A stretch of DNA of 64,000 nucleotides from Alphaproteobacteria bacterium. GTDB taxonomy: Bacteria > Pseudomonadota > Alphaproteobacteria > CAJXXZ01 > 1604HC. The notes under the pieces were generated by a model. The model was not told the DNA's origin, made no database searches, and saw only the letters and a list, made by a program, of their open reading frames with translations. Below are positions 61,682-62,025 of this stretch, piece after piece. The stretch covers positions 235,701-299,700 of the forward strand of contig CP060235.1 of assembly GCA_023898705.1 (NCBI GenBank). Direction: 5' to 3'. How positions within the stretch are numbered: the first letter of the stretch is position 1; each line of letters begins with the position of its first letter. A program made the position numbers and the translations under genes.

Positions 61682-61697
61682 TGTTCCACGTGGAACA
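61682..61697. other. parS-like centromere site, copy 1 (TGTTCCACGTGGAACA)
   Basis: Perfect 16-bp palindrome. Each half equals the TGTTCCAC half of the Bacillus subtilis-type parS TGTTCCACGTGAAACA. Confidence 0.75.
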
Positions 61698-61770
61698 ATT
61701 GTTGGATAGATTTTCATTAATTGCAATGCATCAATTCTATTAAAATTGAACAAGAGAACTATTTCGCATA

Positions 61771-61786
61771 TGTTCCACGTGGAACA
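61771..61786. other. parS-like centromere site, copy 2 (TGTTCCACGTGGAACA)
   Basis: Identical perfect palindrome, starting 89 bp after the start of copy 1. Confidence 0.75.
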
Positions 61787-61889
61787 TATAGTTGATTCTT
61801 TTTTGATACGGTGTAGAAGCATGTACCTTTGTGACCATAAGAATATAAATCAATGTTGGTGTTTTATGAAAGTGTTTTTTATTGCAAAT

Positions 61890-61905
61890 TGTTCCATGTG
61901 GAACA
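61890..61905. other. parS-like centromere site, copy 3 (TGTTCCATGTGGAACA, one mismatch)
   Basis: The same 16-mer with a C-to-T change at the centre. Starts 119 bp after the start of copy 2. Confidence 0.65.
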
Positions 61906-62009
61906 TAGTAGCAGTAGAAAATTTCAAACAAAGTCAAACTTGTATCTTAGATAAATGGATAAGAACAATGACATAAATTTGCTTTAGACATGATATTTTA
62001 GAGATAAAT

Positions 62010-62025
62010 TGTTCCACGTGGAACA
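62010..62025. other. parS-like centromere site, copy 4 (TGTTCCACGTGGAACA)
   Basis: Identical perfect palindrome, starting 120 bp after the start of copy 3. It lies 17 nt from the stop of the downstream convergent gene. Confidence 0.75.

What the first reader, a model, noticed from the sequence alone, without database searches (positions are those of the whole stretch)
61682..62025. Cluster of four parS-type palindromes TGTTCCACGTGGAACA in one convergent intergenic region
**Seen in sequence.** Three perfect copies and one copy with a single mismatch of a 16-bp palindrome start at 61682, 61771, 61890 and 62010, giving spacings of 89, 119 and 120 bp. They fill the 381-bp gap between two convergently transcribed genes, so there is no promoter to regulate there.

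**Established knowledge.** The ParB-binding centromere parS has the consensus TGTTNCACGTGAAACA, and the B. subtilis site is TGTTCCACGTGAAACA. The motif here is the fully symmetric version of the TGTTCCAC half-site. parS sites usually lie origin-proximal, often near parAB.

**Inference.** This is the chromosomal partition locus of this organism, as an unusually tight four-site array, and it places the window near oriC. No parA or parB gene is present in the window, so the centromere is uncoupled from its operon.
Basis: partly seen in the sequence, partly recalled or inferred. Interest (0 to 1): 0.65.

Follow-up and report, generated by a model that had tools for sequence, protein, structure and literature searches.

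The report
Ordinary chromosomal parS centromere cluster
Four copies of the standard bacterial centromere sequence (parS) sit between two genes in a tiny protist-endosymbiont genome; this is almost certainly the ordinary loading site for the chromosome-segregation protein ParB, and tight clusters like it are common in bacteria.

Summary
Three perfect copies and one copy with one mismatch of TGTTCCACGTGGAACA lie at 61682, 61771, 61890 and 62010. They fill the 381-bp gap between a 3'-5' exonuclease gene (+) and a ferredoxin/thioredoxin-reductase-like gene (-). No other copy with up to 3 mismatches occurs in the 64 kb.

The 16-mer is identical to experimentally validated parS sites of Pseudomonas aeruginosa, P. 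putida and Bdellovibrio bacteriovorus. The window comes from a roughly 558-kb alphaproteobacterial endosymbiont related to Candidatus Cytomitobacter. Two relatives carry arrays of 6 and 8 copies in the same neighbourhood, while the flanking DNA is not conserved. That indicates selection on the 16-mer itself, so the parS/ParB reading is well supported.

- The array is not unusually tight. Of 120 loci from many phyla, 47 hold at least 4 parS within 360 bp, and one holds 25.
- Closeness to oriC is not shown. Strand-resolved GC skew finds no origin in the window and puts it at least 62 kb upstream.

No parA or parB lies in the window. Whether this lineage encodes ParB could not be tested here.

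Verdict: a new member of a known kind, of low interest.

The parts
61682..61697 (.). parS site 1, perfect palindrome TGTTCCACGTGGAACA, 22 nt after the exonuclease stop codon
61771..61786 (.). parS site 2, perfect palindrome. With its flanks it forms an 18-22 bp palindrome that also scores as a weak terminator-like hairpin on the + strand
61890..61905 (.). parS site 3, TGTTCCATGTGGAACA: one transition at the central CpG, the same variant seen at 4 sites in relatives
62010..62025 (.). parS site 4, perfect palindrome, 16 nt after the stop of the minus-strand flavoprotein gene. It also scores as a weak terminator-like hairpin on the - strand
61661..62041 (.). 381-bp convergent intergenic spacer that holds the whole array. 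The spacer sequence between sites is not repeated and not conserved in relatives

Best explanation
The four palindromes are chromosomal parS sites: the centromere-like loading sites for the CTP-dependent clamp ParB (Spo0J family). The genome is a roughly 558-kb alphaproteobacterial endosymbiont of the Cytomitobacter lineage. Shown here: the sites are sequence-identical to validated parS; they are tightly clustered; they are absent from the rest of the window; all are intergenic; and they are conserved as arrays in relatives while the flanks diverge. Inferred from what is established for ParABS: a ParB dimer binds each 16-mer, binds CTP, closes into a clamp and slides onto neighbouring DNA. Four adjacent loading sites would build one partition complex. 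ParA then moves that complex, and it probably also loads SMC. A position between two gene ends keeps the complex away from promoters.
For: The motif and its clustering are far beyond chance. The exact 16-mer is parS2/parS3 of P. aeruginosa, parS of P. putida, and the site bound by B. bacteriovorus ParB in a CTP-dependent way. In Ca. Cytomitobacter primus the same exonuclease/flavoprotein spacer holds 4 copies, and 2 more lie 2.4 kb away. In a second Cytomitobacter genome (ctg1396, 619 kb), 8 copies lie within 2.2 kb after rplQ. Of the 19 in-clade sites, 14 are perfect. The 5 variants differ only at the central CpG, and the flanks share nothing but A/T richness. That pattern indicates selection on the 16-mer in genomes of 27-33% GC. 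The same kind of array occurs in at least 120 genomes of many phyla, and 38 of those loci carry a canonical ParB gene (ParB_N + HTH_ParB + ParB_C) within the 8 kb fetched.
Against: No ParB or ParA gene was seen in the window or in about 162 kb of loci from at least six related genomes. The rest of these genomes could not be reached, so ParB in this lineage is assumed, not shown. No site was found in the regions fetched from C. indipagum, N. abundans or the closest Logan contig, so the position of the array is not fixed in the clade. The array lies at least 62 kb from the origin inferred from skew, which is further than in many model species.
Confidence: 0.85

Rival explanations
1. The palindromes act mainly as RNA hairpins that terminate transcription from the two convergent genes.
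For: Sites 2 and 4 score as terminator-like hairpins. Sites 1 and 4 lie 22 and 16 nt after stop codons. Several sites in relatives also lie 18-60 nt after a stop codon.
Against: The terminator count is not above shuffles (2 found, 1.1 expected). The stem is only 6-9 bp and the T tracts are poor. Terminators do not need one invariant 16-mer identical to parS. In relatives, copies also lie upstream of genes and up to 8 occur per locus. A side role as terminator or roadblock is not excluded.
Confidence: 0.04
2. The sites are operators for a different sequence-specific regulator, not ParB.
For: ParB was not found in the sequence available. In relatives, some copies lie in front of genes (L001 8670 and 8803; L124 4020).
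Against: In the window the sites lie between two gene ends, where there is nothing to regulate. No other protein family is known to recognise this exact 16-mer, whereas ParB binding to it has been shown experimentally. The two unannotated genes of about 300 aa next to the arrays in relatives are not related to each other and do not match the ParB profile.
Confidence: 0.05
3. The sites are a relic centromere in a lineage that has lost ParAB, or a REP/MITE-like dispersed repeat.
For: The genome is strongly reduced, and no parAB was seen in about 226 kb of in-clade sequence.
Against: Fourteen of 19 copies are perfect across three genomes whose intergenic DNA is otherwise unalignable; a relic would decay. 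There is no extended repeat unit, no target-site duplication, no tandem structure and no dispersed copies in the 64 kb.
Confidence: 0.04

Closest known systems
Pseudomonas aeruginosa / P. putida chromosomal parS (parS1-4 cluster near oriC)
   Same: The 16-mer TGTTCCACGTGGAACA is identical to parS2 and parS3, and there is a cluster of four sites (review table).
   Different: The Pseudomonas sites are spread over several kb next to oriC, with parAB nearby. Here the four sites span 344 bp, no parAB lies within 62 kb upstream, and the origin is not in the window.
Bdellovibrio bacteriovorus parS
   Same: The sequence is identical, and purified ParB binds it and then slides off in a CTP-dependent way.
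   Different: B. bacteriovorus has two sites just upstream of parAB.
Multi-site chromosomal centromeres (Myxococcus xanthus 22 sites, Corynebacterium glutamicum, Streptomyces coelicolor)
   Same: Many near-identical parS are grouped in one region.
   Different: The published arrays are spread over tens of kb. The tight spacing seen here (about 90-120 bp) matches instead the unstudied arrays found in the genome scan.
Caulobacter-type alphaproteobacterial ParABS
   Same: Same bacterial class, same consensus family (TGTTNCACGTGNAACA), and the same expected essential role in segregation (my own knowledge; the Caulobacter parS sequence is quoted).
   Different: In Caulobacter, parS lies beside parAB close to the origin. 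That linkage is not seen here.

Membership tests
chromosomal parS (ParB/Spo0J-type centromere) | 16-bp palindrome matching tGTTNCACGTGNAACa | tested here: met
   Three perfect copies of TGTTCCACGTGGAACA and one copy with one mismatch. The sequence is identical to validated parS of P. aeruginosa, P. putida and B. bacteriovorus.
chromosomal parS (ParB/Spo0J-type centromere) | Few copies, clustered, not dispersed along the chromosome | tested here: inconclusive
   There is no other copy with up to 3 mismatches in the 64-kb window. The other 494 kb of the genome could not be read.
chromosomal parS (ParB/Spo0J-type centromere) | Conserved in related genomes under selection on the motif itself | tested here: met
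   There are 6 copies in Ca. C. primus, 8 in Cytomitobacter sp. ctg1396 and 1 in ctg610. Flanks are not conserved, and variants occur only at the central CpG.
chromosomal parS (ParB/Spo0J-type centromere) | Cognate ParB (ParB_N + HTH_ParB) and ParA encoded by the same genome | not testable with these tools
   None was found in the window or in 9 in-clade loci, 226 kb in all.
chromosomal parS (ParB/Spo0J-type centromere) | Origin-proximal location | tested here: inconclusive
   The replication skew term is +0.07 to +0.10 in every third of the window, and has the same sense on both sides of the array in L001 and L124. DnaA boxes number 18 against 24 expected. The origin therefore lies at least 62 kb upstream, which is at least 11% of the chromosome; the true distance is unknown.
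chromosomal parS (ParB/Spo0J-type centromere) | ParB binding and spreading in vivo or in vitro | not testable with these tools
   This needs ChIP-seq, EMSA or biolayer interferometry.
REP/MITE dispersed repeat | Repeat unit longer than the palindrome, many dispersed copies | tested here: not met
   Only the 16-mer is shared, and there are no dispersed copies in the window.
intrinsic terminator | G+C-rich hairpin followed by a T tract, more frequent than chance | tested here: not met
   Two weak matches against 1.1 expected. The sequence is invariant and shows no covariation.

The most novel reading that the evidence does not exclude
The Cytomitobacter-lineage endosymbionts keep perfect canonical parS arrays that move with genome rearrangements and lie far from the origin, while having lost or radically altered ParAB. 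The arrays would then serve another purpose, such as SMC loading, nucleoid anchoring, a transcription roadblock at the end of the ribosomal-protein operon, or binding by a different protein.
Probability: 0.06. Interest if true: 0.6.

Novelty: new member of a known kind. Interest (0 to 1): 0.18.

Why it matters
It gives a usable annotation: the centromere of a roughly 0.56-Mb protist endosymbiont and of two Cytomitobacter genomes, none of which appears to be described in the papers searched. It also shows that these very reduced genomes still keep the ParB target under selection. It does not change what is known about ParABS. A more general by-product is that very tight arrays of canonical parS (4 to 25 sites within 0.3-1.5 kb) are widespread in uncultured phyla. 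This is worth knowing when judging how unusual a centromere layout is.

Tried and rejected
**Finding ParB in the lineage**
- The window's own proteins are not on record for contig look-up.
- Loci fetched through orthologues of the flavoprotein, exonuclease and RpoA held no ParB or ParA. This was checked with ParB and ParA profiles built here.

**ParB candidates next to arrays in relatives**
- Two unannotated genes of about 300 aa lie next to arrays (L001 7707-8612, L124 4051-4935). They are unrelated to each other and do not match the ParB profile built here.

**Positional conservation**
- The array follows neither the flavoprotein gene (L122, L123), nor the exonuclease gene (L125, L126, L127), nor rplQ (L130) in every genome.

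**oriC in the window**
- No skew switch and no DnaA-box cluster were found.

**Tandem duplication of a 120-bp unit**
- Rejected.

**RNA structure**
- The strong fold z-score of the spacer arises simply from the palindromes pairing with each other.

**Literature**
- The Cytomitobacter and Holosporales papers and supplement that were held and read do not mention parB or parS; the Gromoviella paper was not held.

Full report
**Observation**

The sequence is as described. TGTTCCACGTGGAACA occurs at 61682, 61771 and 62010. TGTTCCATGTGGAACA occurs at 61890. With up to three mismatches allowed there is no further match in the 64 kb. Dinucleotide-preserving shuffles gave 0.11 matches on average and never four.

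The sites fill the 381-bp spacer between a 214-aa DNA_pol_A_exo1 3'-5' exonuclease (61016-61660, +) and a 335-aa Pyr_redox_2 flavoprotein (62042-63049, -). The two genes are convergent. Nothing beyond the 16-mer and a few A/T-rich flanking bases is repeated, and there is no tandem-repeat structure.

**Organism and context**

The window carries an alphaproteobacterial tmRNA and has about 33% G+C. It holds the ribosomal-protein operon with secY, adk and rpoA, type VI secretion genes, and several ankyrin-repeat genes.

The closest proteins come from Candidatus Cytomitobacter primus, C. indipagum and Ca. Nesciobacter abundans. These are endosymbionts of diplonemid protists with genomes of about 620 kb. 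The window's own contig is 558,489 bp (papers).

No ParA, ParB or DnaA domain was found in any window ORF. This holds for Pfam scans and for ParB and ParA profiles built here.

**What the motif is**

The exact 16-mer is an experimentally established ParB target:
- It is parS2 and parS3 of Pseudomonas aeruginosa (PMC4368675).
- It is the parS of P. putida (review table in PMC7022226).
- It is the site that purified Bdellovibrio bacteriovorus ParB binds and then leaves by CTP-dependent sliding (bioRxiv 10.1101/2023.06.27.546657).

**Conservation in relatives**

- In Ca. C. primus (L001) the same convergent exonuclease/flavoprotein pair is kept. Its 1166-bp spacer holds four copies, one with the same central-CpG transition, plus a tRNA-Glu. 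Two more copies lie 2.4 kb away, beyond the release-factor gene.
- In a second Cytomitobacter genome (ctg1396, L124), eight copies lie within 2.2 kb between rplQ and hslV.
- A third genome (ctg610, L125) shows one variant copy.

Of the 19 in-clade sites, 14 are perfect. All five variants differ only at the central CpG. All 19 are intergenic, and their flanks share nothing but A/T richness. In genomes of 27-33% G+C with unalignable spacers, this pattern means selection on the 16-mer itself. It rules out a MITE-like or REP-like element and a decaying relic.

The position of the array is not fixed in the clade. No site lies near the flavoprotein gene in ctg1396 or ctg610 (L122, L123). None lies near the exonuclease gene in N. 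abundans (L126) or in the closest Logan contig (L127). None lies near rplQ in C. indipagum (L130).

**How unusual is the layout?**

I scanned one genome per species for two copies of this palindrome 111-141 bp apart. They came from many groups, including Acidobacteriota, Planctomycetota, Bdellovibrionota, Moraniibacteriota, Bacteroidota, Bacillota, Verrucomicrobiota and Myxococcota.

- 94 of the 120 loci hold at least 3 parS, and 47 hold at least 4 within 360 bp.
- One Bdellovibrionota contig holds 25 sites in 1.5 kb.
- A ParB profile found a ParB gene within the fetched 8 kb in 38 of the 120 loci. The profile was built from ORFs in these loci; three of the ORFs it matched were checked and are canonical ParB_N + HTH_ParB + ParB_C.

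So a tight four-site array is ordinary, and so is an array without parB beside it.

**Origin of replication**

GC skew follows transcription direction strongly. I therefore separated a replication term from a transcription term by regression over genes on the two strands.

- The replication term is +0.07, +0.10 and +0.10 in the three thirds of the window.
- It keeps the same sense on both sides of the array in L001 and L124.
- DnaA boxes are not enriched: 18 found against 24 expected, with no cluster.

The + strand is therefore the leading strand throughout. There is no origin or terminus in the window. The origin lies upstream of position 1, at least 62 kb (at least 11% of the chromosome) from the array. 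The claim that the array places the window near oriC is an expectation from other bacteria, not a result.

**Mechanism**

Shown: the sites are canonical parS, clustered, intergenic and under selection.

Inferred from the established ParABS mechanism:
- ParB dimers bind each site, bind CTP, close into clamps and slide outwards.
- Four adjacent loading sites build one partition complex.
- ParA segregates that complex, and it probably loads SMC.

Not shown: that this lineage encodes ParB. About 226 kb of in-clade sequence holds none.

**Rival explanations**

- Two sites score as weak terminator-like hairpins directly after the two stop codons. That count is not above chance, and a terminator does not need an invariant parS sequence. 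A side role as terminator or roadblock remains possible.
- A different regulator is unlikely, because in the window there is no promoter to regulate between two gene ends.

**Verdict**

This is a chromosomal parS cluster: a new member of a known kind, in a lineage where it seems not to have been described. The claims that the array is unusual and that it lies close to the origin are not supported. Interest is low.

Noticed in passing
L091 4518-5998 (Bdellovibrionota MAG JBMNLI010000011.1); also L059, L067, L070, L081, L082, L115, L031: Very dense arrays of canonical parS occur in several uncultured lineages: 13-25 sites within 1-2 kb, often at about 37-50 bp spacing. In L091 the array lies 1 kb from a canonical parB. 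The layout resembles plasmid centromere repeats but uses the chromosomal parS sequence.
   Followed up: partly
window 45063-45572 (-), 50195-50974 (-), 51028-52002 (-), 56933-57415 (+), 57848-58801 (+): Five ankyrin-repeat genes are inserted inside or at the end of the otherwise conserved ribosomal-protein/secY/rpoA operon. Three of them are on the opposite strand.
   Followed up: no
window 42018-43229 (+): Ribosomal protein L2 is 403 aa. It has an N-terminal extension of about 130-165 residues made of degenerate R/S/N/Q/G-rich repeats (RNFSQ...SNQEGSS). The Pfam L2 domains start only at residue 168.
   Followed up: no
window 55454-56485 (+): RpoA is only 32% identical to that of Ca. C. indipagum, whereas the nearby exonuclease and flavoprotein are 66-83% identical to Cytomitobacter-lineage orthologues. 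Two metagenome contigs (P0242, P0243) have RpoA 51-52% identical, so closer unsampled relatives exist.
   Followed up: partly
window 10494-20452: Type VI secretion genes (DotU/TssL, IcmF/TssM, ImpA/TssA, gp25/TssE) are present, in line with what has been published for diplonemid endosymbionts.
   Followed up: no
L001 7707-8612 (-) and L124 4051-4935 (+): In two relatives, unannotated genes of about 300 aa with no Pfam match sit directly beside or between parS sites. They are unrelated to each other, and one has a signal-peptide-like start. Their function is unknown.
   Followed up: partly
window 63134-64000 (+): A release-factor gene starts here and runs off the window end. In Ca. C. primus two further parS copies lie just beyond its orthologue, so this genome may have more sites just outside the window.
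   Followed up: no
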